Positions 21,873 through 48,488 of a stretch of DNA of 64,000 bases are shown here, piece after piece. Origin of the DNA: a virus; IMG/VR virus record IMGVR_UViG_3300030616_000016, positions 70,561 to 134,560 of that record, one strand, 5' to 3'. Both the position numbers and the translations under genes were made by a program. The notes under the pieces are model-generated. The model was not told the DNA's origin and did not search any database. It was given only the letters and a program-made list of their open reading frames with translations. How positions within the stretch are numbered: the first letter of the stretch is position 1; each line of letters starts with the position of its first letter.

Positions 21873-23167
21873 TACCCCACGCCTAAAGGCGGGGGCTTCC
21901 TAATTCATCGAAAATTGCGTTCCATACTGGCTACGTCTTACATCTTCTCCAAAGGCTTTAGGTTCCCCTTGCCCAGGGGTACAAAATGCAAAATTCAAAA
22001 TATTACTAGATGCAAGGGCATCTCTATCGTGTTTGGCACCACAAGTGCAAGTCCAATATCTGTCACTTAGCTTAAGATTATTATTTATAGCGCCGCACTG
22101 GTTACACATCTTGCTGGATGGTTCAAATCTTCCTATAGTCAAAACATGCTTTCCATACCAACCTGCCTTATACTCAAGAAAGGTACGAAAAGTATACCAT
22201 CCAACATCAGAGATAGCCTTGGCCAAACAATGATTCTTCACCATTCCAGAAACGTTTAAATCCTCAAGACACACTGCTTGGTTCTCGTCAATGAGCCTTT
22301 TGGACAATTTATGCAAAAAATCTTTACGTTGATTAGAAATCTTCTCATGTATCAACGCTACCTTCCTACGAGCCTTGTTTCTATTTGAAGAACCTTTCTT
22401 CTTCTTTGATAATTGTTTTTGCTTTCTTGCCAATCTTCTTTCAAGTTTCTTTAGGTATCTTGGATTATCTATTTTCTCGCCTGTTGATAGTGTTGCAAAA
22501 TGTTTTAATCCAACGTCAACACCTACACTATTATCTCGTTCAGGATTACATTTGATAGGTAATTCTTCTCCATTGTCAACCAAAATAGAAGCAAAGTATT
22601 TCCCAGAAGGAGCCATGAATATAGTTACAGTTTTAATATTGCCTTCAAATTGTCTATGGAATTTGCATTTGATGCCATCACGGAATTTCATTACATATAG
22701 CCTATTATTATCAAAATCCACATTACTTCCTTGTGGAAATTGACAAGATTGCTTTTTGAATTTCTTCTTAAATTGAGGATATCTTGCCTGTTTCTTAAAA
22801 AACCGCCGGAAAGCATTGTCAAGGTTTCTAAAGGCCATTTGCAAAGATTGACTATTAACTTCCTTCAGCCAACCATGCTCAGATTTCATATGTTTCAATT
22901 GCTTTATCAAATCAAAACAGGAAGGAGATTTCCCCGTTTTTTGATAAGACTCTGTTTTCTTTTGGAGTCCCAAATTGTATATGAACCGTACACAACCAAA
23001 ATGCTTCACAAGAAGCTCCTGTTGTTTTTTGTTGGGGTATATTTTGTATTTATATGCTCGTATCATTATATTTATAGTATAGCACAGGTTTCTGTAAATG
23101 TCAAGAGAAAAACGCATTCTTATATCCCCATGGCTAAAGCCAGGGGTCTTACGAATGCACCTTGATA
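21866..23167 (-). mobile_element. IS200/IS605-family insertion sequence, TnpB-only (IS1341-like), with subterminal hairpin ends
   Basis: Left end (near 23167) TATCAAGGTGCATTCGTAAGACCCCTGGCTTTAGCCATGGGG and right end (near 21866) GCCCCCGCCTTTAGGCGTGGGGTAATGTCAC. Both carry GC-rich hairpins with TTTA loops. The same ends recur at 33634-33883 and 62731-62781. Confidence 0.8.
21900..23117 (-). CDS. tnpB: TnpB (OrfB) RNA-guided nuclease of IS200/IS605 family
   Basis: 405 aa. RuvC-like NQAVCLEDLNVSGMVKN (RuvC-II E), zinc finger CNQCG...CTCG, RuvC-III DRDALASSNILNFA. Confidence 0.85.
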   Translation of the reverse strand: MRFSLDIYRNLCYTINIMIRAYKYKIYPNKKQQELLVKHFGCVRFIYNLGLQKKTESYQKTGKSPSCFDLIKQLKHMKSEHGWLKEVNSQSLQMAFRNLDNAFRRFFKKQARYPQFKKKFKKQSCQFPQGSNVDFDNNRLYVMKFRDGIKCKFHRQFEGNIKTVTIFMAPSGKYFASILVDNGEELPIKCNPERDNSVGVDVGLKHFATLSTGEKIDNPRYLKKLERRLARKQKQLSKKKKGSSNRNKARRKVALIHEKISNQRKDFLHKLSKRLIDENQAVCLEDLNVSGMVKNHCLAKAISDVGWYTFRTFLEYKAGWYGKHVLTIGRFEPSSKMCNQCGAINNNLKLSDRYWTCTCGAKHDRDALASSNILNFAFCTPGQGEPKAFGEDVRRSQYGTQFSMN

Positions 23168-24371: not shown

Positions 24372-25121
24372 TTATTCAATTATTTCTTTTATTTCTTTTA
24401 TGATACTTTCTTTTGATTTAATTTTTGGTTTTGACTCATGCAATATATTATTAGTACTTTCTTGTATCATATAATCTTCAACTTGGATAGATTTTAATGT
24501 GTCTTTATACAAGTCATCGATTGTTATATCTGAAATATCATTTACACTATCAGAATATGTTGATATCATGTTATTAAATTTTGATTTAAGCTCTACTTGT
24601 TTAGACTTTGCCCTCAGAGAAATGAGCTTAGAATCATATTCATTACATTTCTTTTCATATTCTTTTATCTTATTTTCCCAGCTAATCAGAATTTTTCTTA
24701 AAGAGCTTAGTGTTTCTTTTTTAAGCTTAACTTCTTCTTTCATTTTCTTTAGAACAAGTGACCTAGAATGAATCGTTTCTAGTTCTTTTAGGTTTCGCTC
24801 TACATTTGATTCTTTTAGATTTTTCTTTATGTTACTTGTAACTTCTTGTATATTTTGTTCAAGTCCATAAACTTCTTCTTCCAGAAACTTTATATCTATT
24901 TTTAACTCTATTGCCTGTGATTTACTTACTTTCAAATTACTTTTCAGGTCATCTATAACGACCTCGATTCTATCAATTTTTACATCTGTAGGAATTGATT
25001 TTTCTATCTTCTTAACAGTAGTTTTCTGTGCTGTTTTGACATAGCTTTTAACTCTGCTGTATCCAATAAATACGATTGCTAATATTGTTATTATGGCTAC
25101 GACAACAAGTTTTTTAATCAT
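24372..25121 (-). CDS. Membrane-anchored coiled-coil protein
   Basis: N-terminal TM MIKKLVVVAIITILAIVFIGY followed by a K/E-rich heptad-like sequence. Confidence 0.55.
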   Translation of the reverse strand: MIKKLVVVAIITILAIVFIGYSRVKSYVKTAQKTTVKKIEKSIPTDVKIDRIEVVIDDLKSNLKVSKSQAIELKIDIKFLEEEVYGLEQNIQEVTSNIKKNLKESNVERNLKELETIHSRSLVLKKMKEEVKLKKETLSSLRKILISWENKIKEYEKKCNEYDSKLISLRAKSKQVELKSKFNNMISTYSDSVNDISDITIDDLYKDTLKSIQVEDYMIQESTNNILHESKPKIKSKESIIKEIKEIIE

Positions 25122-26298
25122 TCAATTTCTCCTCTGATTTTGTTGATTTTTGTAGATTATATTGCATTATGTTTTTATCAAATTCTCTAATCTGTGTCTT
25201 CATTTCTTCTGATTCTTTTATAAGTTTGCTATATTTATGTTTGATAATAGCTTTAGAATGTAATAAGCCAATATGTTCAATAAGTTTATTAAATTTGTAA
25301 GCGAATCTAGTAGCTTTTGCTGGAATTTCTGTCAATGCTTCTACTTCTTGATCAGTTAGAGTTGAAGTTTTTAATTTATCAACTCTTGATTTTAATTCAT
25401 TAAGTTTACTTTGTGGTAATTTCAACTTATTTAATTGGTATTTGAAATCATCTTTGAGGAGATCTGCGAACTTTCCTTCTTTTGCTTCAAGTATATTATC
25501 AAAGAATCCTGTACCTTTCTTAGGTTCTTCTTCTATATATTTATCAAATCTAGTTACGGGTTCTTCCGGAGCACTCGCAAGTTCTTTCAGATACTCTGAA
25601 GGCTTAGGTAATGTTTTAGGTTCTTCTGTTGTTATTTTCTGTTGTAATGATCTTATCCACTCAGCACGTCCATCAAACTTGATGCTGTTTAAAGAAATAT
25701 GGTTATAATAATATTCAATAAGACAATCTGTTACATTTTTTAATATTTGTTCTTTTGGCATTTGATATATACAAGTCTTAAGACATTTTTTACTAATACT
25801 TTCCAAAACATTTTCTTTAATGTTTGGATATTCTGCTTTAATGTATTCTTTTATTAATGGAAGTCTTCTTTCAATAAGTTCATTATTTCTAAGATTATTC
25901 ATCATTAATAATATTACGATTGTTAAGCAAGTTCCAAAAATATATGGATTTATTTTGGTCTCAACTTTTGCAGCATCTCCATATAAGCTATGCCATATTA
26001 CAATAAGTTTTCCTGCTTGGATTATTGAATATACAATTAATGGGATAAATAATATGTATCCTAATGCCTCATATGCACTCATATATGGAAGTGTATTTAT
26101 ATTCATTATTGGCATTGGCTCCTTGGTTTGTGGAACATGGACATTGCTAAGTATTGATATAAGAATAAGTACAAACGAGATTATTAGTGCACAAAATAAT
26201 GACTTACTGGTTTGTATGATTTCAGATAAAAGTATTATCAATGCAAGTAATGGTAATCCAATACAAATGATTATTATAATGTATATAAGCACTACCAT
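25114..26298 (-). CDS. Polytopic membrane protein with C-terminal coiled-coil region
   Basis: Several hydrophobic segments in the N-terminal 130 aa, then a K/E-rich region. Confidence 0.55.
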   Translation of the reverse strand: MVVLIYIIIIICIGLPLLALIILLSEIIQTSKSLFCALIISFVLILISILSNVHVPQTKEPMPIMNINTLPYMSAYEALGYILFIPLIVYSIIQAGKLIVIWHSLYGDAAKVETKINPYIFGTCLTIVILLMMNNLRNNELIERRLPLIKEYIKAEYPNIKENVLESISKKCLKTCIYQMPKEQILKNVTDCLIEYYYNHISLNSIKFDGRAEWIRSLQQKITTEEPKTLPKPSEYLKELASAPEEPVTRFDKYIEEEPKKGTGFFDNILEAKEGKFADLLKDDFKYQLNKLKLPQSKLNELKSRVDKLKTSTLTDQEVEALTEIPAKATRFAYKFNKLIEHIGLLHSKAIIKHKYSKLIKESEEMKTQIREFDKNIMQYNLQKSTKSEEKLND

Positions 26299-26300
26299 AA

Positions 26301-27305
26301 TTATCTCATTAAATATAGATTGCGTAGTTCATCTCTATCATAAAACACATTACGGATTTCTTGTCTAATATTATAGTCTTGAAATATTCTATCATAAAAA
26401 CTAGTAGTATCTCCACCAAGAAATTCTATTGCATCATTTATTGGTTGAGTTGTATTATGGTCTGGAGTAATTCCAATTCCTTCTTTCTCGACTCCATATA
26501 TATCATATATAATTCCTGCTGTGTAATTGAATCCATCGCCTCTATAAAACTTATATGCTTGTACGGCTCTAAAAGCACCAAATGTTTTAGAGCCAAATAT
26601 TGTAGCTTCTGAATAGTATTTCATTGCTGAAACAAATATTTCTGCGAATTGAAATGTACAAGCACTCGTAAGTATACACATATTATTTTTATGAAGCCAT
26701 GTATTTTCTGTTTGCACAGACATATCTGCAAAATCACTAAACGCAAATGCTGTATTATTAATTGCTGCAACTAATTCATTAGAATAAGTTTTGTGAGTAA
26801 ATCCAGCAAGCAGTTTTATGTATTCGCCTAATCCGCCATTATTACAATATCTAAGATCGAGAATTAAAGAATTGCATTCGAATTCATACATGTAATGGTT
26901 GACATTAAGCATAACAGTTTCTGCCATTCCAGCAGACATTTTATCTACAGATATATATAATATATCTGGTTCAATTTTATATATTTTTAATGTTCCTGAT
27001 GCTTCATTATCTGATATGGCTGCTTCCATTTCTTCGCTGTTTATATACCTTGTATATAAATCTGTTTCAGAACGGAGTCTATTTATATATGATTCTAAAG
27101 TATCTGAAGTTAAAGGTGGTTGAACGTTTCCATAAATATAGCCTTGTGATAATACCGAATATGCTTCTTGTAGATATTCTTCATCTACGTTTGTAATTTG
27201 ATTTTCTGTATTTGGATTGCTACTATTTCCTCCTCCTCCACAGCCATTACAAAATATAATTATGATACATAATATGAACAAATTAATTTTGATATTTTTT
27301 ATCAA
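26301..27305 (-). CDS. Lipoprotein, S41 (C-terminal processing peptidase)-like domain
   Basis: Signal and lipobox LFILCIIIIFCNGCGGGG. CILTSACTFQFAEIFVSAMKYYSEATIFGSKTFGAFRAVQ aligns with the S41 LVNxxSASASEIFAGALQD...GxxTFGKG region but with a non-canonical Ser motif. Confidence 0.45.
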   Translation of the reverse strand: MIKNIKINLFILCIIIIFCNGCGGGGNSSNPNTENQITNVDEEYLQEAYSVLSQGYIYGNVQPPLTSDTLESYINRLRSETDLYTRYINSEEMEAAISDNEASGTLKIYKIEPDILYISVDKMSAGMAETVMLNVNHYMYEFECNSLILDLRYCNNGGLGEYIKLLAGFTHKTYSNELVAAINNTAFAFSDFADMSVQTENTWLHKNNMCILTSACTFQFAEIFVSAMKYYSEATIFGSKTFGAFRAVQAYKFYRGDGFNYTAGIIYDIYGVEKEGIGITPDHNTTQPINDAIEFLGGDTTSFYDRIFQDYNIRQEIRNVFYDRDELRNLYLMR

Positions 27306-27428
27306 GACTACCTCTTTCTGTTTAATAATGGTTGTAATGAATAGGAAAGTCTCTGGTAAGGCAAAAGGATGAAGAGCACGAGGGCTCTTTGGGGGAAGTC
27401 GAAAATTCTCACCAGAGACGGGATATAT

Positions 27429-28220
27429 TTAGAAATCAGTTGATTTTGCGGTTCTCATACCGCGAGCCATCATTTCTTTCACAAAGTCTTCTCCAAGACT
27501 TTCGAAGGTCGCTACATTTGAAGTTGTATCTTCAATTAATACAAACTTCTTAATATTCTCATCGCCGAAGTTATCAGCAATGTCTCTTACTGTATTTGCA
27601 ACACAGTGTGACAGAGCTTCTCCAGTTATGAGAATATCGTCTGCTTCCAGTAGGCTATCAAGAAGATTGCCATTAAGTCTTGTAGTAGGGTCAGACGGGT
27701 CTTCTACATCGGCTTTTACTGCTGAGTAGTGTTCTGTAAAAGGATTAGACCCTTTAGTAACATAGTCAATCATAGCAAACTGATTTTCCCACTCAGTTAT
27801 TGCTTCGAACACATTAGCATCGATTGAATGTCCTTGCGAACCAATAAGACAATGTGGCCGCCAGATGCAGAGAACATATCTGCCATTGTCTTCAAGTGTT
27901 TTTGTATAATCTGAAGCTTTCTGTTGAAGAGCTGGGTTATAGGAATGCCAGACACCATTTTTTACATCATCATGGGATATTACTGTAAATGGGTTTGGAT
28001 GTTTACCATCTTTATCAACCCAGAATATAGGATGTGCAATATGAATGGTTCTGTGAGAATCCATTGTAATATGGATATCATCTAATCCGTCTTTCATTCT
28101 GTTGACCATTTCTGCAAGACGTTTCATATCCTCATCTGCTCTAGGAACAACTAGGGCTCCTTTTGGATTACAGAAGTCATATTGAGGATCAATAGCAAGA
28201 AGATGAGTTTTCTTGTTCAT
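27429..28220 (-). CDS. Isochorismatase-family hydrolase, nicotinamidase (PncA)-like
   Basis: LLAIDPQYDFCNPKGALVV (LLVIDMQNDF-type), IHITMDSH, RPHCLIGSQG (catalytic Cys region). Confidence 0.7.
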   Translation of the reverse strand: MNKKTHLLAIDPQYDFCNPKGALVVPRADEDMKRLAEMVNRMKDGLDDIHITMDSHRTIHIAHPIFWVDKDGKHPNPFTVISHDDVKNGVWHSYNPALQQKASDYTKTLEDNGRYVLCIWRPHCLIGSQGHSIDANVFEAITEWENQFAMIDYVTKGSNPFTEHYSAVKADVEDPSDPTTRLNGNLLDSLLEADDILITGEALSHCVANTVRDIADNFGDENIKKFVLIEDTTSNVATFESLGEDFVKEMMARGMRTAKSTDF

Positions 28221-28239: not shown

Positions 28240-29895
28240 TTATTTTTTAATACTGATAGAGAACATTTCTTTATCCTCTGTAAAGTATACACTGGTACCA
28301 TCAGTGTATAGTGGCATTGATGAGTCTATCGGCGGATTAGTAATAATGCGTTTTTGATTATCTTTAGAGATCTCAATCTTTTGATCGCTAAATACATCAA
28401 TGCAAACTCCATTATTAAGAACAATGAAATTGATATTATCAACATCGCGCTCTTCTTTGTCTAGCAGAATACCTTTATTTTCTTTGCTGCATAGTTTGAA
28501 TCGGAATCTATAATATTTACCAGATTCTTCTGCTATGCATACTAGAATTCCTCTGCTATGTTTTGCATTGATTATTCTAAGTCCATGGAGTTCCTCAATA
28601 GGACCTAGAAAACTACCAGAATCTTCTAATGGCGCATATGCCCAACATTTGTCTAGGAAGTTGCTAATTACTACTCCACTAAACATTTGATTCATAGTAC
28701 CAAGATTTTGGGATGGATTCGAGCATGCCGCGCTCTTATTCCCCATATTTTTTGCATATACCTCATATACTGAGGCGCCGTTTCTGCAAAATATACTACC
28801 ATTGTATATCATGGCTTTGTCTGCGGCAAATTTACCTGGTATATCCGTTTCTATTTCTACACAGCCATTATCAATTATGCCTAACACAGGGTCAGGAGAT
28901 AGATTGCATAGAAATGCCTTTTTATTGGATATATCCTTAAATATGGATTTACCACAGTATATTGCCTTATCCGTAAATGTATAGAAAATACCATTTAGGA
29001 ATTGTATTGATTTAATCGGCTCATTGTACTTATACATTGATTTAATGTCAAAATTTGCTGTGCTTCTTATAGTCTTTTGAACCATAGCTATATTAATTGT
29101 AGCGTCAGGTTTAGGTGGAGCGCTGCGTTTATTCTCAATGAATATTGACTTAAACCACTCCATATGAGCTTTAGGAATAACTGAGAAGTCTTGACATACG
29201 GATGGAATGGTAACCTTACTATCAAATACGGATATACCATCATCCATTCGCTTAGTAAATTCTCTTGGTTTATAGTCTGGGTGTTTACCCTTATAAGGAT
29301 GGATACCAACATAAAGCTGAAATGCTATTACTGCAAACGAGAACCAATCGCTTAGTTCTGTGAACTTTTTGGCTAAGCGGTCTCTTATTGAATCCATAAT
29401 AGCATTAGCTGGAAATGACTTTGTCTGATAACTGTCAACGTCAATAAAGTAAGGTACTTTATGACCTTTGTCTATCAGAAAGTTCATTTCATTCATATCT
29501 ACTATCAGGCATTGTTTAGAATGAATGTGCTCGACCGTGTCTTGTATATTGCGCACAATTTCTAATACTTGATTAGGAGATATATTATTATCTTTTCTGT
29601 ACTGCTTAGTAAAGAGCTTGCATAGAGCACTTGTCTCTTTAATATACTTCATTGTATATCCGATGACATTGCTTGTCTTTTTATCGCAAACAATATCTTC
29701 CGGTTTGATAACATTGCCGGCTGTTATATAGCCAAGCTCTTCAATCTTTCTTAATGGTATCATATGCTTGATATCATTATAAATCTTGAAGGCAATATTG
29801 TCTTTTTTATATACAGAACCTTGACCACCAGATGCAATAAAATCATTGTCTTTCAGGTCAAATGAAGCCTTTGTTCTATTTACAATGACTCTCAT
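28240..29895 (-). CDS. Ser/Thr protein kinase-like domain protein with large C-terminal domain
   Basis: Gly-rich loop SGGQGSVYKK with IAFKIY (VAIK Lys), catalytic-loop-like LIVDMNEMNFLI, DFG-like IDVDS. C-terminal ~280 aa unassigned. Confidence 0.65.
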   Translation of the reverse strand: MRVIVNRTKASFDLKDNDFIASGGQGSVYKKDNIAFKIYNDIKHMIPLRKIEELGYITAGNVIKPEDIVCDKKTSNVIGYTMKYIKETSALCKLFTKQYRKDNNISPNQVLEIVRNIQDTVEHIHSKQCLIVDMNEMNFLIDKGHKVPYFIDVDSYQTKSFPANAIMDSIRDRLAKKFTELSDWFSFAVIAFQLYVGIHPYKGKHPDYKPREFTKRMDDGISVFDSKVTIPSVCQDFSVIPKAHMEWFKSIFIENKRSAPPKPDATINIAMVQKTIRSTANFDIKSMYKYNEPIKSIQFLNGIFYTFTDKAIYCGKSIFKDISNKKAFLCNLSPDPVLGIIDNGCVEIETDIPGKFAADKAMIYNGSIFCRNGASVYEVYAKNMGNKSAACSNPSQNLGTMNQMFSGVVISNFLDKCWAYAPLEDSGSFLGPIEELHGLRIINAKHSRGILVCIAEESGKYYRFRFKLCSKENKGILLDKEERDVDNINFIVLNNGVCIDVFSDQKIEISKDNQKRIITNPPIDSSMPLYTDGTSVYFTEDKEMFSISIKK

Positions 29896-30731
29896 GGCTT
29901 ATCCTTAAGCAGTGTAGCACATGCTATATCATCAAAGTGCTTATTGTTTATTTTGGAATCCATGATGCGTATTTTCTTCATTCTTCTTTTTACAAACTCT
30001 CCTTTGAAGGTTTTATATACAGTCATTCGTATAGCGTTATCAAGCACACTTGTATTTTCAAAAGAGCTTATACCATCAGTGAACAGGCTTATGCTCATTC
30101 CTTCTGCCATTGGCGCACTAGACATTATGTATGGCTCGAACATGGGGATTGTAGAGCTCTTAAAGTCTTCGTCTGGGTTATATGACAATACTGTTTTTTC
30201 TGGATTGCCCAATATATCCATAGTATTCATATAGTCTTTAATCTTTTCATCTTCCATGCGATATGCAAGATAGTATGGCATGTTAGATGTATATGATATT
30301 TCTTCAATACGAATCCATGGATTTGGGTCATTCGCTCTATCAAAACCATCATTAAAGACAACTACTCCATCTCCCCATACTGCTATGCCAAATCCCTCAT
30401 TATTGGCTATTACTACCATAAGCGTGGCATAGAATGTCTGGATGTCAAGACAAAGAGCTATTGCTACTTTTGATAGCGCTCCCAACACTTTATTTTCAAA
30501 TGAACAAAGAGCAGTTGATAATGTCTTGTGTCCAAACATAACTATTGAGCTTCTTAATGCTTGTTCTGCAGCAATTCCAAGTATTTTTGCACCAAGGTCT
30601 GTGTTTTGTGCAGAAGAACAGCCGTCACAGACGATACCATAGGAATAACCATAGATATCGCCTGTGATAGCATAATCTTCACACATATCATGACTGGCAC
30701 CAATTTCTACAAAACTATCTTTCTGTATCAT
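29892..30731 (-). CDS. PP2C-family (PPM) Ser/Thr phosphatase
   Basis: GIVCDGCSSAQNTDLGAK (PP2C metal-binding region F-G-V-x-DGHGG-like) and FTDGIS (DG motif). Confidence 0.6.
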   Translation of the reverse strand: MIQKDSFVEIGASHDMCEDYAITGDIYGYSYGIVCDGCSSAQNTDLGAKILGIAAEQALRSSIVMFGHKTLSTALCSFENKVLGALSKVAIALCLDIQTFYATLMVVIANNEGFGIAVWGDGVVVFNDGFDRANDPNPWIRIEEISYTSNMPYYLAYRMEDEKIKDYMNTMDILGNPEKTVLSYNPDEDFKSSTIPMFEPYIMSSAPMAEGMSISLFTDGISSFENTSVLDNAIRMTVYKTFKGEFVKRRMKKIRIMDSKINNKHFDDIACATLLKDKP

Positions 30732-30747
30732 TGGTACTCCCAGTCAT

Positions 30748-31497
30748 TTAGAAGTTAAGAATTGAAGATGCCGAGCCGGATCCAAGAGACTGTGATTGTG
30801 AGGATATGCTTTGACTCACAAATTCAGCCAGCTTTGCAAGCTTGGATGGAGTAGCTTCTCCGACAGATACGTATTTATCAAGGTTTGCATTATCCTTGAA
30901 TGTAGTCAAGAAATTCTTGACTGCAGGATCTTTATCAATCCCGATAAGAACCGTAATAATTGATTCGAGGCTTTCTTCTCTTGTGATATCATCTACTAAC
31001 GTAGCAACTTGTACTGGCGCATTATTTGATTGATTATCAGCGCCATCTGTAATGATAAATACAATTGCATTTGTTAGGAGATCTACTTTATCATACATCT
31101 GCTTGCTATACTGATGTGTTGCTTCGATGCCTTCATATGTTGCATCAAATAATGCAGTTGTACCGCCTGTACGGATGATATTAGAGTATTCATCATCACT
31201 AATATCACTTAGGAGGCGGAAACCATGCATTTCGTTCAGATTAGCATTGAATGTAGTGAAGCGAACCATTAAGTTTTCTGCACGTGGAGACTTTTTGCAT
31301 GATTCGATTACAGTTTTCAGCATATCCTCAATATCATCTTTGTATGGAGACACTGAAGAAGATACGTCGATAATAATTGAAACGAGTGTATATTCAGAAG
31401 CACCTAGTTCATCAAGCTTTACAGCACTGAATCTGAAGTTTGATGCAGTCTGCATACTGGTTATGTTTGCAAGATCTTTATCCATTAATCTTGGCAT
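30748..31497 (-). CDS. von Willebrand factor A (vWA) domain protein, TerY-like
   Basis: MIDAS motif VSIIIDVSSSVSP (D-x-S-x-S), downstream T and D residues consistent with vWA. Confidence 0.7.
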   Translation of the reverse strand: MPRLMDKDLANITSMQTASNFRFSAVKLDELGASEYTLVSIIIDVSSSVSPYKDDIEDMLKTVIESCKKSPRAENLMVRFTTFNANLNEMHGFRLLSDISDDEYSNIIRTGGTTALFDATYEGIEATHQYSKQMYDKVDLLTNAIVFIITDGADNQSNNAPVQVATLVDDITREESLESIITVLIGIDKDPAVKNFLTTFKDNANLDKYVSVGEATPSKLAKLAEFVSQSISSQSQSLGSGSASSILNF

Positions 31498-31499
31498 GG

Positions 31500-32486
31500 T
31501 TATTTCCTTTCTTTGTTAAGCCTGTTTCCTTCTCCTAAATGCATAAGGGGAAGCGGTTTAGGGCTATCACCATTTAGGAAGTATACCTTGGTAGCCGGGT
31601 CTTTTGTAATTGTACCTAGTGCTTTAAGTGCTTCAAGCTGGATATATGCAGGATTATTTGCAATAGCATCGTTAACTTTCTGAATTTCATATGCTTTTGC
31701 GTCTGCAAGGATCTTCTGTTTTTCTGCTGAAAGCATTGCGGCGTCTTTATCTGCCTGAGCAGTTTTAACTTTCTTCTGCTGTTCAGTCTCAAACCTGCGC
31801 AACTCTGCTTTCTCACGTTCAGCTTCCTGCTCGCGTTTCTTCTTACTCTCAACACCTTGCTGGATTGTGTTGGGAAGTTGAATATTTCTAATGAGAACAG
31901 CTTCAACATCAAGGCCCTTTGGTGCAACGTATTCTTTAATTGAAGTAAGAAGATTTGCCTGCATCTTTTGCTGAATTTCTTCCCTAAAGAATGACTCTGC
32001 AGTTTTCACACTTTTACCTTGTTCTCGCAATAAGCTTCGGAACTTGGGTAACATGTGTACTTCCATAAGGTCTTTAGGATTACCGGTTTCTTGCAGAATG
32101 TCTGGAGCCATAGACTTGATAATTCGATACTGACAGCTTACATCGAATGTCGTAACAAGCTGGTCCATACTTGGGATGGGAACCTGGCTCATTGTAATAC
32201 TTTTCTGACGACAATCGAATTCTTCCCAATCATACAAAGGATTGGTAAGGTGAATGCCTGCTTCATAGGGCTGATCAACGACTTTACCAAAGAATGTAGC
32301 TACTCCAATATGTCCTGGAGGTATTGAGATAACACATGAAGCGATGAGAGTAATAGCGCCGACGGCTCCTACCAGTAGACCGCCAAGAATATAAGGACGC
32401 CTTTTTTCTTCTGATTTAGCCATAAGACCATATACAAACACCAACAAACCGATTAATGCAATTATAATACCAAGAGCAAGTATCAT
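31500..32486 (-). CDS. SPFH/band-7 (stomatin/prohibitin/HflKC) membrane protein
   Basis: N-terminal TM, then IPPGHIGVATFFGKV and an extended E/K/A-rich coiled region typical of SPFH proteins. Confidence 0.75.
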   Translation of the reverse strand: MILALGIIIALIGLLVFVYGLMAKSEEKRRPYILGGLLVGAVGAITLIASCVISIPPGHIGVATFFGKVVDQPYEAGIHLTNPLYDWEEFDCRQKSITMSQVPIPSMDQLVTTFDVSCQYRIIKSMAPDILQETGNPKDLMEVHMLPKFRSLLREQGKSVKTAESFFREEIQQKMQANLLTSIKEYVAPKGLDVEAVLIRNIQLPNTIQQGVESKKKREQEAEREKAELRRFETEQQKKVKTAQADKDAAMLSAEKQKILADAKAYEIQKVNDAIANNPAYIQLEALKALGTITKDPATKVYFLNGDSPKPLPLMHLGEGNRLNKERK

Positions 32487-33887: not shown

Positions 33888-35558
33888 TTAGTTTATAAGG
33901 CAAAACAGATACTTCTGAATTCTGTCACTGCCTGTTGCATATTCGTCTATCAGGCGATATAAGAGCTTGTCCCAGCCTTTAGATAGCATCAACTGCATTA
34001 CAGTGATGTATATCCTTGTTCCAGACCTCTTACCACTATTTGCATATATTCCATCATCAGATAGCTTACGACTGCATGCATGAGTATTTGTCTGGTGGCT
34101 GAACTTATCTAATACTATCCAGAACACTTTCCCAGACCATGCCTCAACTGTCTGTCCGTTATAAGTATGCTTTTGTGGCTTGCATTCTTTTATAAGAGCA
34201 GATGGTATATTCCCATCTTCTCCTTCTAGAAAGTGAGGAACGGGCGCCGGCCCTGATTCCTCTGCAATATTATTAAGCATAGCTTCTACTATCTGACCTG
34301 GATTCCTACGCTTTAGAGTTGCAAGAGCGTTGGTTACCACTTCTGCTGGTTTGCCATCTATCTTAGGCATTTGCTCGTCTGGTATAATATTTACTATACC
34401 TTTATTACCGTGACGATTTGTAATTTTGTCGCCACTTCTGAGAATATGAAATCTCTCGTATTCGACAATAAGTTTTGTACAAACTGTGTTTGCTACTTTT
34501 GTTCTTATCTCACTGATATTAGACAGTTTAGCTTCACGCTTGACATGACATTTAAGCGTGATTGTTTCTTCTCCATCAGAATAAGAACCAATTATCTGAT
34601 TTGGTCTTACAATGTCTCCGGCTTTGGCTTCCATCTTTAGGCTTTGTTTGCACCATCCTGGTACTACGAATGTCTGTTTCTCAGGAATGACACATGTCAT
34701 TTTTCTAGCTGCTGACTTACTCATAACAATCTGTTCTTTGTATACACCAGGCATGATTGCATGAACTGTAAGTAAGTGCTTGCCATTAAGATTGTTATCA
34801 TAATCTTCTGGAAACACCATAGGTTTATCTGGACTAACTAGCTTGCTGGAAGCCTTGAAATTAGATGCAGTGGTTCTGCGGCGATTATATTCTGGTACAA
34901 TAAGATTCTTATTGAGTATATCGCAATAAACCCGACCTCTTTTGGTGAAGCATCCAATATCGTTTATTTTGCATTCTTCAGCCATGTACATTGTGCGACC
35001 ACAATTCCCCGATGACTGACTTATACTTGTCCAATCAAGAATGCCTTCTGTATTGAATGGCATAAATTCATCCGTTCGTTCTTGAAATAGCTCTAATGAT
35101 ATTTTGGGTCCATAGTGAGTAGCTATTCCCTTTACGACATGAGATAATCTTGAAGTTTTAAGTAAATTATCGAGCTTCATTTGAGCTGTGGTAGAATCTT
35201 CTTGATGTCCGAACATAAAGAAGTCTGACAGTTGTGTAGCATATGCTTGCTTAATGAATTTAAGAAGAAGCTCGTATGGTGTTGATAAATATGTGTGATT
35301 AATATTCATACATCTGTTATTAAAGATTGGCATTGGATTAAGTGTATAGCATAATTGCCGGCTTATTCCATTTACAGAAAACATACCCTTGTTATCAATC
35401 TTAGGTATATTTAGTTTTACGACTGTTTGCATGCTCTGGGATGCCTCTTTAACAAGCATTTTTGTATGAAATAGGTCATCATATTCTTCTATATGACAGT
35501 CAACAGGCAAACAATTACATATAGGAAACAATCTTGCAAGATGAGACTTATTCATCAT
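33888..35558 (-). CDS. Multisubunit RNA polymerase beta-subunit-like protein (C-terminal half homolog)
   Basis: SGDKITNRHGNKGIVNII matches beta region GDK-x-AGRHGNKGV. AIMPGVY...QIVMSKSA resembles the beta AVMPWxGYNFEDAI region. Confidence 0.7.
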   Translation of the reverse strand: MMNKSHLARLFPICNCLPVDCHIEEYDDLFHTKMLVKEASQSMQTVVKLNIPKIDNKGMFSVNGISRQLCYTLNPMPIFNNRCMNINHTYLSTPYELLLKFIKQAYATQLSDFFMFGHQEDSTTAQMKLDNLLKTSRLSHVVKGIATHYGPKISLELFQERTDEFMPFNTEGILDWTSISQSSGNCGRTMYMAEECKINDIGCFTKRGRVYCDILNKNLIVPEYNRRRTTASNFKASSKLVSPDKPMVFPEDYDNNLNGKHLLTVHAIMPGVYKEQIVMSKSAARKMTCVIPEKQTFVVPGWCKQSLKMEAKAGDIVRPNQIIGSYSDGEETITLKCHVKREAKLSNISEIRTKVANTVCTKLIVEYERFHILRSGDKITNRHGNKGIVNIIPDEQMPKIDGKPAEVVTNALATLKRRNPGQIVEAMLNNIAEESGPAPVPHFLEGEDGNIPSALIKECKPQKHTYNGQTVEAWSGKVFWIVLDKFSHQTNTHACSRKLSDDGIYANSGKRSGTRIYITVMQLMLSKGWDKLLYRLIDEYATGSDRIQKYLFCLIN

Positions 35559-37074
35559 TATCTTTCTCCAATACTAGGACTCTGTCCCTGAGATACTTGA
35601 TGAGTTGATTTTTGTCTTCGTTATTCAGTACATTCATGATGTGTTCTATGGCTAGAGTATAGAAAGCGTCGCCTTCTACCATGCTTAGTCTAGGATCAAA
35701 CACTGCATAGAATATAGAATTCTCTGCGTCTACTATATCATTAATTAACTTAGGGTTATCCCTATTATATAGTAGATTAAGATATGGCTCGACTTGTTCT
35801 ACGTCTATCTCACAATCTTTAAGTATTTCGCGAGCTACGTTTATGTCGCTAATACCATCATTTTTAAGTACTTTAATGAGACTGACATATGATTCATCAA
35901 GTTTATGTTTAGAATCAAATAGGCGCTGGTTTGCTTGTTCTGATAGCTTATCTGCAGCTTTGGCTATTTCTATATTGCCATCTGCCAATACTCTTGCACG
36001 ACATGCTGCGGCTCCAGCCTTGCCAATCTCTGATTTCTGGAGAATGAGGCCTTTTGCAACCTTGATGTCGTCTTCTCGTATTTCAGATAAGGACTTGCCT
36101 TTAAAGAATCCTGTAAGGTCCTTAACGTCAATGTCTTCTGCATTACACATGGCTTTTATTGTCTCAGAATTTTCTGTGTCAATAAGGTCATGTGGTCCAA
36201 TTACTCTGAATTTTGAGATTCTTTTTACACCATCATCTATTATGTTTTCCAAGTCAGGGGTTTCTTCTTGATTATCGATAAGAAACTCTTTGTCCCACTT
36301 TGTTGTGGACCAGTCTTCTTCTATATCAATATCAGGATACCCAAGTACTGTTTCAATTAGATCTCCATCGGAATCAGCACCCATGCCATCAGTAATAATG
36401 GGATGAATAATGATCCTGTTGGATTTAGTAGGAAGTATGTATAACTTGCGCATAGAATCGTTGTGTAGCAAGGGATTTCTGAATGCAATTACATAAGGCT
36501 TCCCTTCTGTATTGGACTCTTCTTTCCTTTCTTTCCACTTTTCTATGAACTTGACATATATATGCTGAGGTAATTTTATGTGGTCATAAGGCATTCTGAA
36601 GTCGGTAGCAATATGGCCTTTACCAGAATATAATGCTCTGAAACCAAGGATATATGTATTAAACAATCCTGATTTACCGACCAGCTCTTTAGCCATTATT
36701 TTCCATACTCTTTCAGCACTATCTTCCACTACTTCTGTGTCAATATTGCCAATACCAAGTTGGCTAATTGACACAAGTAGTTTTTCTGTAGCGATTTGTA
36801 TATCATTTAATACTATGTGCCCGGCTACTGGTCCTGGCATATTCATATTAGGGATTATTACTTTTTGAACCTTCTTGCCGAAGTAATTATTTATTTCAAT
36901 CGGCAAGTGTACATACCCGCCATACTGAAGTACATCTTCATCAAGTATGGTGTTTTTGAGGTTCTTATTAAGTAAATCCGGTTTTGAAATGATCGCTTTT
37001 GTTGTATTCGAAAATAGATTTCTTCGTATCTGTATATTACCACACTGTTTCGATAAACTCGTCAGATTCATCAT
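35548..37074 (-). CDS. Multisubunit RNA polymerase beta-prime-like protein (N-terminal part with catalytic loop)
   Basis: AFRNPLLHNDSMRKLYIL...IIIHPIITDGMGADSDGD parallels the beta-prime LNRQPTLHRLGIQAF...IQLHPLVCAAFNADFDGD region. Confidence 0.65.
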   Translation of the reverse strand: MMNLTSLSKQCGNIQIRRNLFSNTTKAIISKPDLLNKNLKNTILDEDVLQYGGYVHLPIEINNYFGKKVQKVIIPNMNMPGPVAGHIVLNDIQIATEKLLVSISQLGIGNIDTEVVEDSAERVWKIMAKELVGKSGLFNTYILGFRALYSGKGHIATDFRMPYDHIKLPQHIYVKFIEKWKERKEESNTEGKPYVIAFRNPLLHNDSMRKLYILPTKSNRIIIHPIITDGMGADSDGDLIETVLGYPDIDIEEDWSTTKWDKEFLIDNQEETPDLENIIDDGVKRISKFRVIGPHDLIDTENSETIKAMCNAEDIDVKDLTGFFKGKSLSEIREDDIKVAKGLILQKSEIGKAGAAACRARVLADGNIEIAKAADKLSEQANQRLFDSKHKLDESYVSLIKVLKNDGISDINVAREILKDCEIDVEQVEPYLNLLYNRDNPKLINDIVDAENSIFYAVFDPRLSMVEGDAFYTLAIEHIMNVLNNEDKNQLIKYLRDRVLVLEKDNDE

Positions 37075-48119: not shown

Positions 48120-48488
48120 TTAGTCAATGTACCCATTTTTCTTAAAGCTAACTAATACTATCTTATTTTTCTCGCGATCATGTTGAAGCTTGATGTATAC
48201 TTTGGTATTACCTATTACTGTTTTGTATACATCCATATATTTTCTTACGTATAGATTTGCTTTTGTTGCATAAGCAAAATCTGGCTCTTTTAAGTTGAGC
48301 AGAGTTTCTACAACTTGGCTTTTTGAAAAGCTAAAGTCTTTTTGCGCATGATATCTCGCATCTCTTAATATCATATATCTATCATTCTTAATGAGAGTTT
48401 TTGCGCCTTCTAACTCAATAGAAGGCATGGCTCTCCTTTTTATGACAGGGAGATCTATGTCATTATTATTTGCTAAAGATACTTTCAC
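48120..48488 (-). CDS. Hypothetical protein
   Basis: ORF of 122 aa. Confidence 0.45.
   Translation of the reverse strand: MKVSLANNNDIDLPVIKRRAMPSIELEGAKTLIKNDRYMILRDARYHAQKDFSFSKSQVVETLLNLKEPDFAYATKANLYVRKYMDVYKTVIGNTKVYIKLQHDREKNKIVLVSFKKNGYID

What the first reader, a model, noticed from the sequence alone, without database searches (positions are those of the whole stretch)
27429..28220. Phage-encoded NAD salvage pair: PncA-like nicotinamidase (27429-28220) and PncB-like nicotinate phosphoribosyltransferase (44039-45196)
The cysteine-hydrolase motifs (LLAIDPQYDFC..., catalytic Cys in HCLIGS) and the NAPRTase EFGTRRR signature are both present, although the genes are 16 kb apart. Together they convert nicotinamide to NaMN. 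Nicotinamide is the product of NAD-cleaving defence effectors such as TIR, SIR2 and SEFIR. A viral PncA-PncB route would be a Preiss-Handler-type NAD reconstitution pathway, analogous in purpose to the described NadV/NMNAT- or ADPR-based phage NARP pathways but using different enzymes.
Basis: partly seen in the sequence, partly recalled or inferred. Interest (0 to 1): 0.65.

Follow-up and report, generated by a model that had tools for sequence, protein, structure and literature searches.

The report
Phage nicotinamide salvage with kinase cassette
A 231-kb probable phage encodes a genuine nicotinamidase and a nicotinate phosphoribosyltransferase, the first two steps for rebuilding NAD+ from nicotinamide; that gene pair is already catalogued in large phages, but the nicotinamidase proves to be wired to a vWA/phosphatase/kinase trio in many phage contigs and bacterial genomes, a link I could not find described.

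Summary
Both ORFs exist, on the minus strand. 44039-45196 is an unambiguous PncB-type NAPRTase (TIGR01514 394 bits, cutoff 269.6). 27429-28220 fails the curated thresholds (Pfam Isochorismatase 18.8 < 27). It is still a nicotinamidase by profile, structure and residues: pLDDT 94.4, the top 17 PDB fold matches are all nicotinamidases, and the triad D11/K156/C206 and metal site D54/H56/H123 are conserved. That motif is the WPxHC metal-His motif, and the nucleophile is C206 (SHCV).

The two genes are linked elsewhere: adjacent PncA-like/PncB/NadE/NadD in a 198-kb viral contig, and similar sets in phage G and other loci. No NadD or NadE lies in the 83 kb of this contig that I could see, so the last two steps fall to the host or to unseen phage genes. 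A counter-defence role is plausible but untested. Phage Preiss-Handler gene sets are already published, so the pair is not new.

The new point is that the PncA-like gene ends a tight vWA-PP2C-Ser/Thr-kinase operon. This cassette recurs with PncA-like in 73 of 80 viral loci and in most of the 80 best bacterial loci, often with PncB/NadD/NadE adjacent or interleaved. I found no description of this link.

The parts
27429..28220 (-). Long-form (263 aa) metal-dependent nicotinamidase, PncA-like. Catalytic triad D11/K156/C206; metal ligands D54/H56/H123 (WRPHC).
   Evidence: The ORF is. It is sub-threshold on curated HMMs. A family profile against the PDB gave nicotinamidases in 10 of 11 hits, best yeast Pnc1 at 1.3e-13, with all six functional residues aligned. 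These residues are invariant or at least 90% conserved in 47 homologues. They are also invariant across viral homologues at 31-59% identity, phage G gp275 and Mtb PncA. The AF2 model has pLDDT 94.4. Foldseek PDB ranks 1-17 are all nicotinamidases.
28240..29895 (-). 551-aa Ser/Thr protein kinase: kinase domain about residues 1-260, then an all-beta C-terminal domain at 274-551. It ends 19 nt before the PncA-like start codon.
   Evidence: Pfam Pkinase 4.2e-7. There are 1677 homologues of conserved length, with invariant G23 G24, D133, N138 and D152, and K37 at 90% or more. AF2 pLDDT is 91.1. The best fold matches are CDK, BRAF and IRAK4 protein kinases. The C-terminal domain has no Pfam or PDB sequence match.
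29892..30731 (-). PP2C-family protein phosphatase; overlaps the kinase start by 4 nt.
   Evidence: Pfam PP2C_2 3.7e-10, 40.1 bits against a gathering score of 24. Homologues were found by tblastn in 79 of 80 viral kinase loci.
30748..31497 (-). vWA-like protein with an intact MIDAS motif (D44-x-S-x-S48 ... T114 ... D151); 16 nt upstream of the PP2C gene.
   Evidence: The sequence is. D44, S48, T114 and D151 are invariant in 14 family members. A 44%-identical homologue in L058 carries a precomputed Pfam PF00092 VWA hit. The window copy itself has no Pfam or PDB sequence hit.
31500..32486 (-). SPFH/Band 7 protein, 2 nt upstream of the vWA gene and probably co-transcribed. It is not part of the conserved cassette elsewhere.
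   Evidence: Pfam Band_7 2.7e-24. No homologue was found next to the cassette in other loci.
27372..27389 (-). Terminator-like hairpin about 40 nt after the PncA-like stop codon; a possible operon end.
   Evidence: Consensus scan only, so this is weak evidence.
44039..45196 (-). PncB-type nicotinate phosphoribosyltransferase (385 aa) with the EFGTRRR motif and the conserved His209 in GTQAHEW. It lies 15.8 kb from the cassette.
   Evidence: Pfam NAPRTase 9.1e-57 and NAPRTase_N 7.9e-31. TIGR01514 equivalog 394.3 against 269.55; NF003704 438 against 379. All six PDB hits are NAPRTases, best 2im5 at 6.6e-79. It is 43-44% identical to PncBs that sit directly beside the cassette in other viral loci.

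Best explanation
The window is the reverse complement of positions about 97-161 kb of a 231.6-kb probable jumbo-phage contig. It carries the first two enzymes of the deamidating (Preiss-Handler) nicotinamide salvage route.

The 263-aa protein is a metal-dependent nicotinamidase that hydrolyses nicotinamide to nicotinate. Cys206 is the nucleophile, assisted by Asp11 and Lys156. The pyridine ring is held by a metal bound to Asp54, His56 and His123. The 385-aa PncB then condenses nicotinate with PRPP, driven by ATP, to give NaMN. Conversion of NaMN to NAD+ needs NadD and NadE. These are absent from the 83 kb of the contig that could be read, so they are supplied by the host or by unseen phage genes.

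The nicotinamidase is not a free-standing gene. It is the terminal gene of a tightly packed operon, (SPFH)-vWA-PP2C-Ser/Thr kinase-PncA. This vWA/PP2C/kinase/PncA-like cassette is an ancient mobile unit shared by many bacteria and large phages. In other genomes it carries PncB, NadD and NadE beside it or interleaved within it.

The most likely working model is a nicotinamide-to-NAD+ recycling module. Its activity or assembly would be switched by reversible phosphorylation, with the kinase and PP2C as writer and eraser and the MIDAS-containing vWA protein as the phospho- or metal-dependent binding partner. The phage would use it to hold up the NAD+ pool of the infected cell, including after NAD+ cleavage by host NADases.

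Shown: gene presence, the enzyme family of both proteins, conservation of catalytic and metal residues, and conserved gene linkage. Inferred: substrate and activity, dependence on host NadD/NadE, any regulatory role of the triad, and the counter-defence purpose.
For: Enzyme identity: PncB above the equivalog cutoffs; all PDB hits are NAPRTases; nicotinamidases in 10 of 11 PDB profile hits, with D11=D8, D54=D51, H56=H53, H123=H94, K156=K122 and C206=C167 of yeast Pnc1; these residues are conserved in close and distant homologues; pLDDT 94.4; the top 17 fold matches are all nicotinamidases, ahead of maleamate amidase, biuret hydrolase, CSHase and RutB.

Functional linkage of PncA-like with NAD synthesis:
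- L051 has PncA-like, PncB, NadE and NadD on one strand.
- L002 has a type-II NAPRT-like gene, NadD, PP2C, kinase, PncA-like, vWA and NadE.
- L056 and L058 contain NAPRTase_N, NADAR, PARP, ARH and NadM-like genes.
- The L003-L044 lineage has NadE two genes upstream.
- Bacterial loci show the order PncA-like>vWA>PP2C>kinase>PncB, or PncA-like>PncB directly.

Cassette statistics: among 51 bacterial loci with at least 5 kb downstream, 40 have vWA, 28 the full triad, 17 a PRTase and 48 at least one of these. From the kinase side, among 80 viral loci, 79 have PP2C, 74 vWA, 73 PncA-like, 38 a PRTase, 25 NadE and 17 NadD. NAD genes are interleaved inside the triad in about 10 loci.

Operon packing in the window: gaps of 2, 16, -4 and 19 nt. 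The GC content of both genes (38.6% and 37.1%) is close to the window's 36.1%. Literature context: jumbo phage PA5oct induces the host pncA-pncB1-nadE operon during infection (PMC7318152).
Against: - The 263-aa protein misses the curated Pfam and NCBIfam thresholds, and no activity has been measured.
- PncB is 15.8 kb away in a different operon, so co-regulation in this genome is not shown.
- No NadD or NadE was found in the window or flanks. None was traceable to this contig among the 120 closest relatives of a related phage's NadE.
- 28 of 80 viral loci and most bacterial loci show the cassette with no PRTase within 10 kb, so NaMN synthesis may not be the cassette's only or main output.
- The triad is not recognised by PADLOC TerY-P models, and nothing shows what the kinase phosphorylates.
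- No virion gene was seen in the 83 kb examined, so 'phage' rests on indirect evidence.
- The counter-defence role has no direct support here.
Confidence: 0.68

Rival explanations
1. The point of the cassette is to remove nicotinamide, not to rebuild NAD+. A switchable nicotinamidase would lower free nicotinamide. That could relieve product inhibition of NAD-consuming enzymes such as sirtuins, ADP-ribosyltransferases and NADases. It could also starve competitors, for example co-infecting phages that use NadV- or Namat-based NARP pathways, of their substrate. On this reading the cassette is a conflict or regulatory device, and PncB is only an optional add-on.
For: The bare PncA-like>vWA>PP2C>kinase arrangement, with no PRTase, NadD or NadE within 10 kb, is the commonest architecture: 28 of 80 viral loci and 25 of 80 bacterial loci. 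TerY-P-like triads are reported as stand-alone anti-phage systems and as parts of restriction systems (PMC11090510). The cassette neighbours include PARP, ADP-ribosylglycohydrolase and NADAR. From general knowledge, yeast Pnc1 activates Sir2 by clearing nicotinamide.
Against: About half of the viral loci do carry a PRTase within 10 kb. NAD-synthesis genes are interleaved inside the cassette in about 10 loci, which is hard to explain if NAD+ rebuilding were incidental. This phage has kept a PncB of the cassette-linked type. Hosts usually have their own PncB, so a 'bare' cassette can still feed salvage.
Confidence: 0.15
2. The two genes are ordinary auxiliary metabolic genes that simply boost NAD+ supply for a large phage's own NAD-dependent enzymes, such as NAD-dependent ligase, dehydrogenases and ADP-ribosyltransferases. 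They would have no specific relation to NAD-depleting defence systems.
For: The same cassette sits in a normal chromosomal neighbourhood in a Desulfobacterales MAG, among histidine kinases, binding proteins and glycogen phosphorylase. The closest relative of the PncA-like protein (68% identity) lies a few genes from an NAD-dependent DNA ligase. Published surveys interpret phage NAD genes both ways (PMC11662467). No known anti-defence gene was recognised next to either gene.
Against: This rival is not exclusive of the main explanation, because the chemistry is identical. Nicotinamide is specifically the product of NADase, ART and sirtuin reactions, not of redox use, so a nicotinamide-specific entry step fits NAD+ cleavage better than general demand. 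The association with macro/DarG-like, NADAR, ARH and PARP genes in related loci points to ADP-ribose-centred conflicts.
Confidence: 0.3
3. The 263-aa protein is an isochorismatase-like hydrolase acting on another amide or ester, not on nicotinamide.
For: It falls below the Pfam gathering score and far below the NCBIfam nicotinamidase equivalog cutoff. It has an insertion of about 55 residues (roughly residues 64-118) that is absent from short PncAs such as Mtb PncA and phage G gp275. The superfamily is broad.
Against: The Asp-His-His metal site is kept. By established knowledge of the family, this site distinguishes nicotinamidases from other isochorismatase-like hydrolases, and it is invariant together with the Asp-Lys-Cys triad. 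All 17 best structural matches are nicotinamidases. There is repeated adjacency to PncB, NadD and NadE.
Confidence: 0.07
4. The contig is not a phage but another large mobile element or a fragment of a small cellular genome, so 'phage-encoded' is a mislabel.
For: No virion, terminase or portal gene was identified in the 83 kb examined. There was no megablast match to deposited phages and no exact match in IMG/VR. The RNAP beta-like fragment has only weak phage matches.
Against: The contig is 231.6 kb with almost all genes on one strand, mostly ORFans, and no tRNA, rRNA or ribosomal-protein genes. There are PHROG hits to a UvsX-like recombinase (1e-49) and phage helicases (6e-92, 2e-74). It has split RNAP beta-like genes, and Pol III alpha, RuvC and HU in the flanks, as in jumbo phages. 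Cassette homologues occur in IMG/VR contigs and in three published huge-phage genomes.
Confidence: 0.1

Closest known systems
Bacillus phage G NAD cluster (gp273 NUDIX, gp275 isochorismatase hydrolase/PncA-like, gp277 NAPRT, gp281 NadD, gp283 NAD synthetase)
   Same: A phage-encoded nicotinamidase-family protein together with a nicotinate phosphoribosyltransferase, giving the same nicotinamide to nicotinate to NaMN logic (PMC12484599).
   Different: Phage G has a short canonical PncA of 180 aa, only 24% identical to the window protein. Its NAPRT is of a different type, 26% identical. NadD and NadE lie in the same cluster, and there is no vWA/PP2C/kinase triad. In the window the two genes are 15.8 kb apart and NadD/NadE are not seen.
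'NAD-jumbo phages' with Preiss-Handler gene sets (Microbiome 2024, PMC11662467; e.g. Kuafu_71 pncB-nadD-nadE)
   Same: Large uncultured phages carrying pncB and sometimes pncA. The authors interpret these as autonomous NAD+ synthesis and as possible counter-defence against Sir2-type depletion.
   Different: That work is KEGG-level annotation. It does not describe the divergent 263-aa PncA clade or its linkage to a signalling triad. The window lacks the nadD and nadE that define their 'complete pathway' class.
NARP1 (Adps+Namat), NARP2 (NadV+NMNAT) and NARP3 (PnuC+NadR) phage NAD+ reconstitution pathways
   Same: The same proposed purpose: rebuilding NAD+ from its breakdown products or precursors in an infected cell. 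NARP2 also starts from nicotinamide.
   Different: The enzymes and intermediates differ: the deamidated route through nicotinate and NaMN needs four steps, against two for NARP2. The last two steps are not encoded here. No experiment shows rescue from NADase defence. The NARP papers do not mention PncA or PncB.
Bacterial PncA-PncB salvage (e.g. the E. coli, Salmonella and Pseudomonas pncA-pncB1-nadE operon)
   Same: The same two reactions. PncB reaches the equivalog model and keeps the conserved His in the GT.AHEW motif. PncA keeps the triad and the metal site.
   Different: The nicotinamidase belongs to a long-form clade with an insertion of about 55 residues. In both bacteria and phages it is typically encoded with vWA, PP2C and kinase genes rather than in a plain metabolic operon.
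TerY-P triad (TerY-like vWA + PP2C phosphatase + Ser/Thr kinase)
   Same: The same three-domain composition and tight operon. MIDAS is intact in the vWA protein, and the kinase and PP2C appear catalytically competent (definition from PMC11090510).
   Different: The kinase carries an all-beta C-terminal domain of about 280 aa instead of the zinc ribbon or OB fold described for TerY-P. PADLOC TerY-P models do not match. The partner is a nicotinamidase and NAD-synthesis genes rather than Ter, restriction or CoCoNuT components.

Membership tests
Nicotinamidase (PncA/Pnc1; isochorismatase-like cysteine hydrolase superfamily) | Asp-Lys-Cys catalytic triad | tested here: met
   D11, K156 and C206 align with Pnc1 D8, K122 and C167 in the profile-PDB alignment. 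They are invariant in 47 homologues and in distant viral homologues, phage G gp275 and Mtb PncA. The functional roles of the Pnc1 and Mtb residues come from established literature, recalled from memory.
Nicotinamidase (PncA/Pnc1; isochorismatase-like cysteine hydrolase superfamily) | Asp-His-His metal-binding site, including the WPxHC motif, that positions the pyridine ring | tested here: met
   D54 and H56 (TMDSH) and H123 (WRPHC) align with Pnc1 D51, H53 and H94. D54 and H123 are invariant and H56 is at least 90% conserved. All three are invariant in the wider alignment.
Nicotinamidase (PncA/Pnc1; isochorismatase-like cysteine hydrolase superfamily) | Isochorismatase-like alpha/beta fold closest to solved nicotinamidases | tested here: met
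   AF2 pLDDT 94.4 and pTM 0.90. Foldseek PDB ranks 1-17 are all nicotinamidases (A. baumannii 1.7e-14, target-normalised TM 0.77; Pnc1; Leishmania; P. horikoshii; Drosophila; Mtb; S. pneumoniae; S. mutans). Other amidases of the superfamily rank lower.
Nicotinamidase (PncA/Pnc1; isochorismatase-like cysteine hydrolase superfamily) | Score above the curated HMM thresholds (Pfam PF00857 gathering score; NCBIfam NF008623 equivalog cutoff) | tested here: not met
   18.8 bits against 27, and 33.7 bits against 174. The clade is divergent: some homologues carry a precomputed PF00857 hit and many do not.
Nicotinamidase (PncA/Pnc1; isochorismatase-like cysteine hydrolase superfamily) | Nicotinamide deamidase activity | not testable with these tools
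   This needs an enzyme assay or pncA complementation.
PncB-type nicotinate phosphoribosyltransferase (EC 6.3.4.21) | NAPRTase_N plus NAPRTase catalytic domains, above curated thresholds, including the equivalog model | tested here: met
   PF04095 193 bits against 20.8; PF17767 107.4 against 32.6. TIGR01514 394.3 against 269.55; NF003704 438 against 379.
PncB-type nicotinate phosphoribosyltransferase (EC 6.3.4.21) | Closer to nicotinate- than to nicotinamide-specific PRTases (NadV/NAMPT/Namat) | tested here: met
   All six PDB hits are NAPRTases, best P. gingivalis 2im5 at 6.6e-79. The PHROG nicotinamide-PRTase family matches only at 1.9e-19.
PncB-type nicotinate phosphoribosyltransferase (EC 6.3.4.21) | Conserved His of the ATP-coupling (autophosphorylation) site | tested here: met
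   H209 in GTQAHEWFMFHG aligns with the His of GTHPHEWIQFHG in 2im5. The role of this His (His219 in Salmonella PncB) is from memory and was not tested.
Complete phage-encoded Preiss-Handler pathway (PncA, PncB, NadD, NadE) | NadD (NaMN adenylyltransferase) and NadE (NAD synthetase) encoded by the same genome | tested here: inconclusive
   Neither was found in the window or the 10-kb flanks, by tblastn with NadD/NadE from two phages and by Pfam. No NadE from a contig of this length appeared among the 120 closest relatives of L002 NadE. About 149 kb of the contig could not be read.
NARP1 / NARP2 / NARP3 phage NAD+ reconstitution pathways | Defining enzyme pairs: Adps+Namat, NadV+NMNAT, or PnuC+NadR | tested here: not met
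   The only PRTase is a PncB equivalog. No NMNAT, NadR, PnuC, Nudix or PRPS-like Pfam hit occurs in the window or flanks. Definitions are from PMC13464706.
NARP1 / NARP2 / NARP3 phage NAD+ reconstitution pathways | Demonstrated restoration of NAD+ and phage growth under NADase defence | not testable with these tools
   This needs infection assays.
TerY-P triad | vWA (MIDAS) + PP2C + Ser/Thr kinase in one operon | tested here: met
   The genes are contiguous with gaps of 16 and -4 nt. PP2C_2 scores 40.1 bits. The kinase fold and catalytic residues are supported. MIDAS residues D44, S48, T114 and D151 are invariant.
TerY-P triad | Kinase fused at the C-terminus to a zinc ribbon (or an OB fold in the defence version); recognised by TerY-P models | tested here: not met
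   The C-terminal 274-551 region is an all-beta domain of about 28 strands with no Pfam or PDB sequence match. PADLOC gives only weak mad6 and PD-T4-6 kinase hits and nothing for the vWA or PP2C. The definition is from PMC11090510.

The most novel reading that the evidence does not exclude
The PncA-like/vWA/PP2C/Ser-Thr-kinase cassette, often extended by PncB, NadD and NadE, is a previously undescribed, phosphorylation-gated nicotinamide-recycling system. It is shared by many bacteria and by large phages. In phages it would act as a regulated, Preiss-Handler-type NAD+ reconstitution pathway (in effect a fourth NARP-like route) that is switched on when NAD+ is cleaved. In bacteria it would be the cellular counterpart, or a conflict module built on nicotinamide control.
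Probability: 0.35. Interest if true: 0.75.

Novelty: new variant of a known kind. Interest (0 to 1): 0.5.

Why it matters
NAD+ depletion is a major bacterial anti-phage strategy. The three phage reconstitution pathways shown experimentally all use the amidated route or ADP-ribose. If the deamidating PncA/PncB route also rescues phages, it would add a pathway that partly relies on host NadD and NadE, which makes its weak points predictable.

The comparative result is the more interesting part. A divergent nicotinamidase clade that standard HMM thresholds miss is hard-wired to a vWA/PP2C/kinase switch. I found it in at least 145 viral contigs and, for the 80 best of at least 574 bacterial loci examined, in most of those with enough flanking sequence. 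That would give TerY-P-like triads, whose mechanism is unknown, a concrete metabolic partner. It also suggests that nicotinamide salvage can be under phosphorylation control in prokaryotes and their viruses.

If the pair is only an auxiliary metabolic gene set, the finding is ordinary: one more large phage with NAD salvage genes.

Tried and rejected
- Megablast of 24 kb against deposited phages gave no match. The tRNA scan found none.
- An exact 44-mer search of IMG/VR for this contig gave no match.
- I tried to detect a NadE elsewhere on the contig. I searched with the related phage's NadE and looked for a hit whose longest contig was 231,647 or 231,593 bp. None appeared among the 120 listed, which is inconclusive for a divergent copy.
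- Walking the contig beyond 10 kb from each window end was not possible, because only window-encoded proteins can be looked up.
- PADLOC on the cassette, PncA and PncB gave no TerY-P or other system hit, only weak kinase matches.
- PDB sequence and profile searches for the vWA-like protein and the kinase C-terminal domain found nothing. Pfam on the C-terminal domain also found nothing.
- The RNAP beta-like fragment against deposited phages gave only weak partial hits, so no clade placement was possible.
- The 336-aa ORF next to pncB (weak IS110 Transposase_20 hit) and the ORFs flanking pncB have no homologues next to pncB or the cassette elsewhere. I judged them not part of the system.
- SPFH, the PspA-like protein and the S41 peptidase next to the cassette are not conserved with it elsewhere.
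- The Ter-system paper by Anantharaman et al. (2012; PMC4104200) is not held, so I could not check whether it mentions a nicotinamidase link.
- I considered and rejected the idea that the kinase is a small-molecule kinase, because its best fold matches are protein kinases.
- The supplementary tables of PMC11662467 are not held, so phage pncA counts could not be taken from them.
Full report
**Observation.** Both ORFs exist as described but lie on the minus strand: 27429-28220 (263 aa) and 44039-45196 (385 aa). The window is 36.1% G+C, nearly all of its ORFs of 90 aa or more lie on the minus strand, and it has no tRNA. An exact-protein look-up places it on ENA contig ERZ27252234:k141_1275754, which is 231,593 bp long. 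From the record coordinates of four genes, the window is the reverse complement of roughly positions 97,042-161,041.

**PncB.** The 385-aa protein is unambiguous.
- Pfam NAPRTase scores 9.1e-57 and NAPRTase_N 7.9e-31.
- The NCBIfam equivalog TIGR01514 scores 394.3 bits against a cutoff of 269.55, and NF003704 scores 438 against 379.
- All six solved relatives are nicotinate phosphoribosyltransferases, the best being P. gingivalis 2im5 at 6.6e-79. The alignment shows His209 in GTQAHEW opposite the conserved His.
- The PHROG family for nicotinamide PRTase matches only at 1.9e-19.

So this is a nicotinate-specific enzyme, not a NadV or Namat type.

**The PncA-like protein.** Pfam Isochorismatase scores 18.8 bits against 27, and NCBIfam nicotinamidase scores 33.7 against 174. 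The protein is nevertheless a nicotinamidase by every other test I could run.
- A single-sequence PDB search already puts yeast Pnc1 first.
- The protein has 3168 homologues; the best 120 are almost all about 263 aa.
- A profile of 47 of them finds 11 solved sequences, 10 of which are nicotinamidases; Pnc1 scores 1.3e-13.
- In that alignment D11, D54, H56, H123, K156 and C206 lie opposite Pnc1 D8, D51, H53, H94, K122 and C167. From the established structural literature, recalled from memory, these are the Asp-Lys-Cys triad and the Asp-His-His zinc site.
- Five of the six are invariant and H56 is at least 90% conserved in the family. All six are invariant in an alignment that adds viral homologues of 31-59% identity, phage G gp275 and Mtb PncA.
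- An AlphaFold2 model is confident (pLDDT 94.4, pTM 0.90). Its 17 best PDB matches are all nicotinamidases, ahead of maleamate amidase, biuret hydrolase, carbamoylsarcosine amidase and RutB.

That string is the WPxHC metal-ligand motif, and the nucleophile is C206 in SHCV. Compared with short PncAs, this clade has an insertion of about 55 residues at roughly positions 64-118.

**Are the two genes functionally linked?** In this window they are 15.8 kb apart, in different tight gene strings. Linkage is clear elsewhere.
- In L051, a 197.7-kb IMG/VR contig, a 52%-identical PncA-like gene is followed on the same strand by PncB. The cluster also holds NadE (TIGR00552, 227 bits) and NadD (TIGR00482, 111 bits against 112.45).
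- An 83-aa kinase remnant lies between the PncA-like gene and PncB in L051.
- L002, an 86-kb viral contig with 59% PncA identity, has a type-II NAPRT-like gene, NadD, PP2C, kinase, PncA-like, vWA and NadE.
- A T4-like contig carries PncA-like, a NAPRTase_N protein, NADAR, PP2C and the kinase.
- A 157.8-kb contig has a NadM-like NTase-Nudix protein, PARP and ADP-ribosylglycohydrolase upstream, then PncA-like, vWA, PP2C, kinase and PncB.
- A lineage of 120-400-kb contigs has NadE two genes upstream of a 35%-identical PncA-like gene.
- Among deposited phage genomes, PncA-like and this type of PncB co-occur in the huge phages LR756511.1 and LR756500.1, 28-29 kb apart.

**Pathway completeness.** tblastn with NadD and NadE from two phages found nothing in the window. 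Precomputed Pfam calls for the window and for 10 kb beyond each end show no NadD, NadE, NMNAT, Nudix, NADAR or macro domain, and extra Pfam scans added none. An indirect test for a NadE elsewhere on the contig was negative but inconclusive. About 149 kb of the contig could not be examined. As far as can be seen, the phage makes NaMN and relies on NadD and NadE from elsewhere.

**The unexpected context.** The PncA-like gene is the last gene of a tightly packed string. In transcription order the string is:
- SPFH, 32486-31500;
- a vWA-like protein, 31497-30748;
- PP2C, 30731-29892;
- a 551-aa kinase, 29895-28240;
- the PncA-like gene, 28220-27429.

The gaps are 2, 16, -4 and 19 nt, and a terminator-like hairpin follows.

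The vWA-like protein has an intact MIDAS motif that is invariant in its family, and a homologue carries a Pfam VWA hit. The kinase has the canonical catalytic residues conserved. Its confident model shows an N-terminal domain that best matches Ser/Thr protein kinases and an unassigned all-beta C-terminal domain.

This trio has the composition of a TerY-P triad as defined in PMC11090510. It lacks the zinc-ribbon or OB-fold fusion, and PADLOC does not recognise it.

**The linkage is reciprocal and widespread.**
- A scan of one genome per bacterial species found at least 574 loci encoding the long-form PncA, including complete chromosomes.
- Among the best 80, the dominant order is PncA-like>vWA>PP2C>kinase, sometimes followed by PncB.
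- Of the 51 loci with at least 5 kb downstream, 40 have the vWA gene, 28 the whole triad, 17 a PRTase and 48 at least one of these.
- One such operon lies in an ordinary chromosomal neighbourhood.
- Starting from the kinase instead, 145 IMG/VR contigs encode a relative. In the best 80, PP2C is present in 79, vWA in 74, PncA-like in 73, a PRTase in 38, NadE in 25 and NadD in 17. In about ten loci the NAD genes are interleaved inside the triad.
- In deposited phages the kinase occurs only in the three huge-phage genomes that also hold the PncA-like gene, 2-10 kb from it. No cultured phage has the cassette.

**Mechanism.** What is shown is a nicotinamidase and a nicotinate PRTase with intact active sites, and a conserved genomic coupling of this nicotinamidase clade to a vWA/PP2C/kinase trio and to the rest of the Preiss-Handler pathway.

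What is inferred is the following. Nicotinamide is deamidated and converted to NaMN, and host or unseen phage NadD and NadE finish NAD+. The trio gates or assembles this activity by reversible phosphorylation. The phage benefits by sustaining NAD+, including when host NADases cleave it.

The main rivals are these:
- The cassette's purpose is nicotinamide removal. This is supported by the many 'bare' cassettes and by the defence associations of TerY-P triads.
- The genes are general auxiliary metabolism.
- The substrate is not nicotinamide. This is unlikely given the metal site and the gene context.
- The contig is not a phage. No virion gene was seen in 83 kb, but the PHROG replication genes, the split RNAP beta-like genes, the ORFan content and the viral homologues argue for a phage.

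**Comparison with what is known.**
- NARP1, NARP2 and NARP3 use Adps+Namat, NadV+NMNAT and PnuC+NadR. The NARP papers do not mention PncA, PncB or the deamidated route.
- The gene combination is not new for phages. The Bacillus phage G record annotates NUDIX, isochorismatase hydrolase, NAPRT, NadD and NAD synthetase in one cluster (PMC12484599).
- PncB is annotated in Agrobacterium phage Atu_ph07, Sinorhizobium phage Phosso and an Acinetobacter phage.
- A 2024 survey reports 174 of 668 gut jumbo phages with complete salvage or Preiss-Handler sets. It mentions phage pncA and proposes counter-defence (PMC11662467).
- Two comparative surveys of phage NAD systems describe only NadV with NadM or NadR (PMC9503650; PMC7824862).
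- I found no paper linking a nicotinamidase to a vWA/PP2C/kinase triad. The original Ter-system paper is not held, so it could not be checked.

**Verdict.** The 'new NARP-like pathway' framing overstates the case, because the pair is a member of an already catalogued kind and is incomplete here. The conserved nicotinamidase-triad cassette is the part worth following up.

Noticed in passing
window 28240-31497 (minus strand); also L002, L056-L059, L062-L223: A vWA/PP2C/Ser-Thr-kinase trio resembling a TerY-P triad is encoded by a phage and is consistently fused in operons with a long-form nicotinamidase and NAD-synthesis genes. This holds in at least 145 viral contigs and in most of the 80 bacterial loci examined. 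The kinase has an unassigned all-beta C-terminal domain of about 280 aa.
   Followed up: yes
L051 9522-9773: An 83-aa ORF between the PncA-like gene and PncB is a remnant of the cassette kinase (VVDLNEMN motif; 34% identity by tblastn). This suggests the triad was lost from an ancestral cassette, leaving a plain PncA-PncB-NadE-NadD cluster.
   Followed up: partly
L051 5489-8427 and 15015-16655: The complete Preiss-Handler cluster in this 198-kb viral contig is flanked by a macro/DarG-like protein, an RtcB RNA ligase and an Rsr/Ro60 RNA-binding protein. The region therefore combines RNA repair, ADP-ribose removal and NAD+ synthesis.
   Followed up: partly
L058 1-9919: Upstream of the cassette in a 157.8-kb contig lie a PARP-like protein (WGR + PARP_reg + PARP catalytic), an ADP-ribosylglycohydrolase, a NadM-like NTase-Nudix fusion and a CTP_transf_like-CoaE fusion. 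Together they form a dense NAD/ADP-ribose island.
   Followed up: partly
window 21900-23117 (minus strand): A 405-aa IS605-family OrfB/TnpB-like transposase (phrog_506 1.5e-133; Pfam OrfB_IS605 and Cas12f1-like_TNB) lies inside the phage-like contig.
   Followed up: no
window 878-3107 (minus strand): A reverse transcriptase-like protein (RVT_1; phrog_2825 4e-31) starts inside the 3' end of a UvsX/RecA-like recombinase gene, with an overlap of about 44 nt.
   Followed up: no
window 14572-16042 (minus strand): A ThiF/E1-like protein (1.4e-21) overlaps the end of a uracil-DNA-glycosylase-superfamily protein (6.3e-30). The pairing may indicate DNA-base modification or repair.
   Followed up: no
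window 33888-37074 (minus strand): A 556-aa protein has an RNA polymerase Rpb2 domain 6 hit (2.4e-13) and is preceded by a 508-aa ORF with no hit. This looks like split multisubunit RNAP beta genes, as in jumbo phages, but it has only weak similarity to deposited phages.
   Followed up: partly
window 48120-48488 and 49037-49381 (minus strand): There are precomputed Pfam hits to an MqsR-toxin-like protein and a DUF488 protein among small ORFs upstream of pncB. Coordinates were converted from L060.
   Followed up: no
window 43010-44020 (minus strand): The 336-aa ORF that starts 18 nt after the pncB stop codon has a weak IS110-family Transposase_20 hit (7.7e-5). It has no homologue next to pncB or the cassette in any other locus examined.
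   Followed up: partly
window 24372-27305 and 31500-32486 (minus strand): Membrane- or envelope-stress-type genes surround the cassette: a weak PspA/IM30 match, an S41 peptidase with a lipoprotein-like N-terminus, and SPFH/Band 7. None is conserved with the cassette elsewhere.
   Followed up: partly
L224 3976-5892: The closest relative of the PncA-like protein (68% identity) lies about 4 kb from an NAD-dependent DNA ligase and near 7-deazaguanine-type genes (GCHY-1 and a Fer4_12 radical-SAM protein). The context is phage-like.
   Followed up: no
L053 11451-20260 (contig beyond the window start): The flank carries two glycosyltransferases, RuvC, and a Pol III alpha gene that appears to be interrupted by a LAGLIDADG-like ORF (PHP/DNA_pol3_alpha, then LAGLIDADG_3, then HHH_6).
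   Followed up: no
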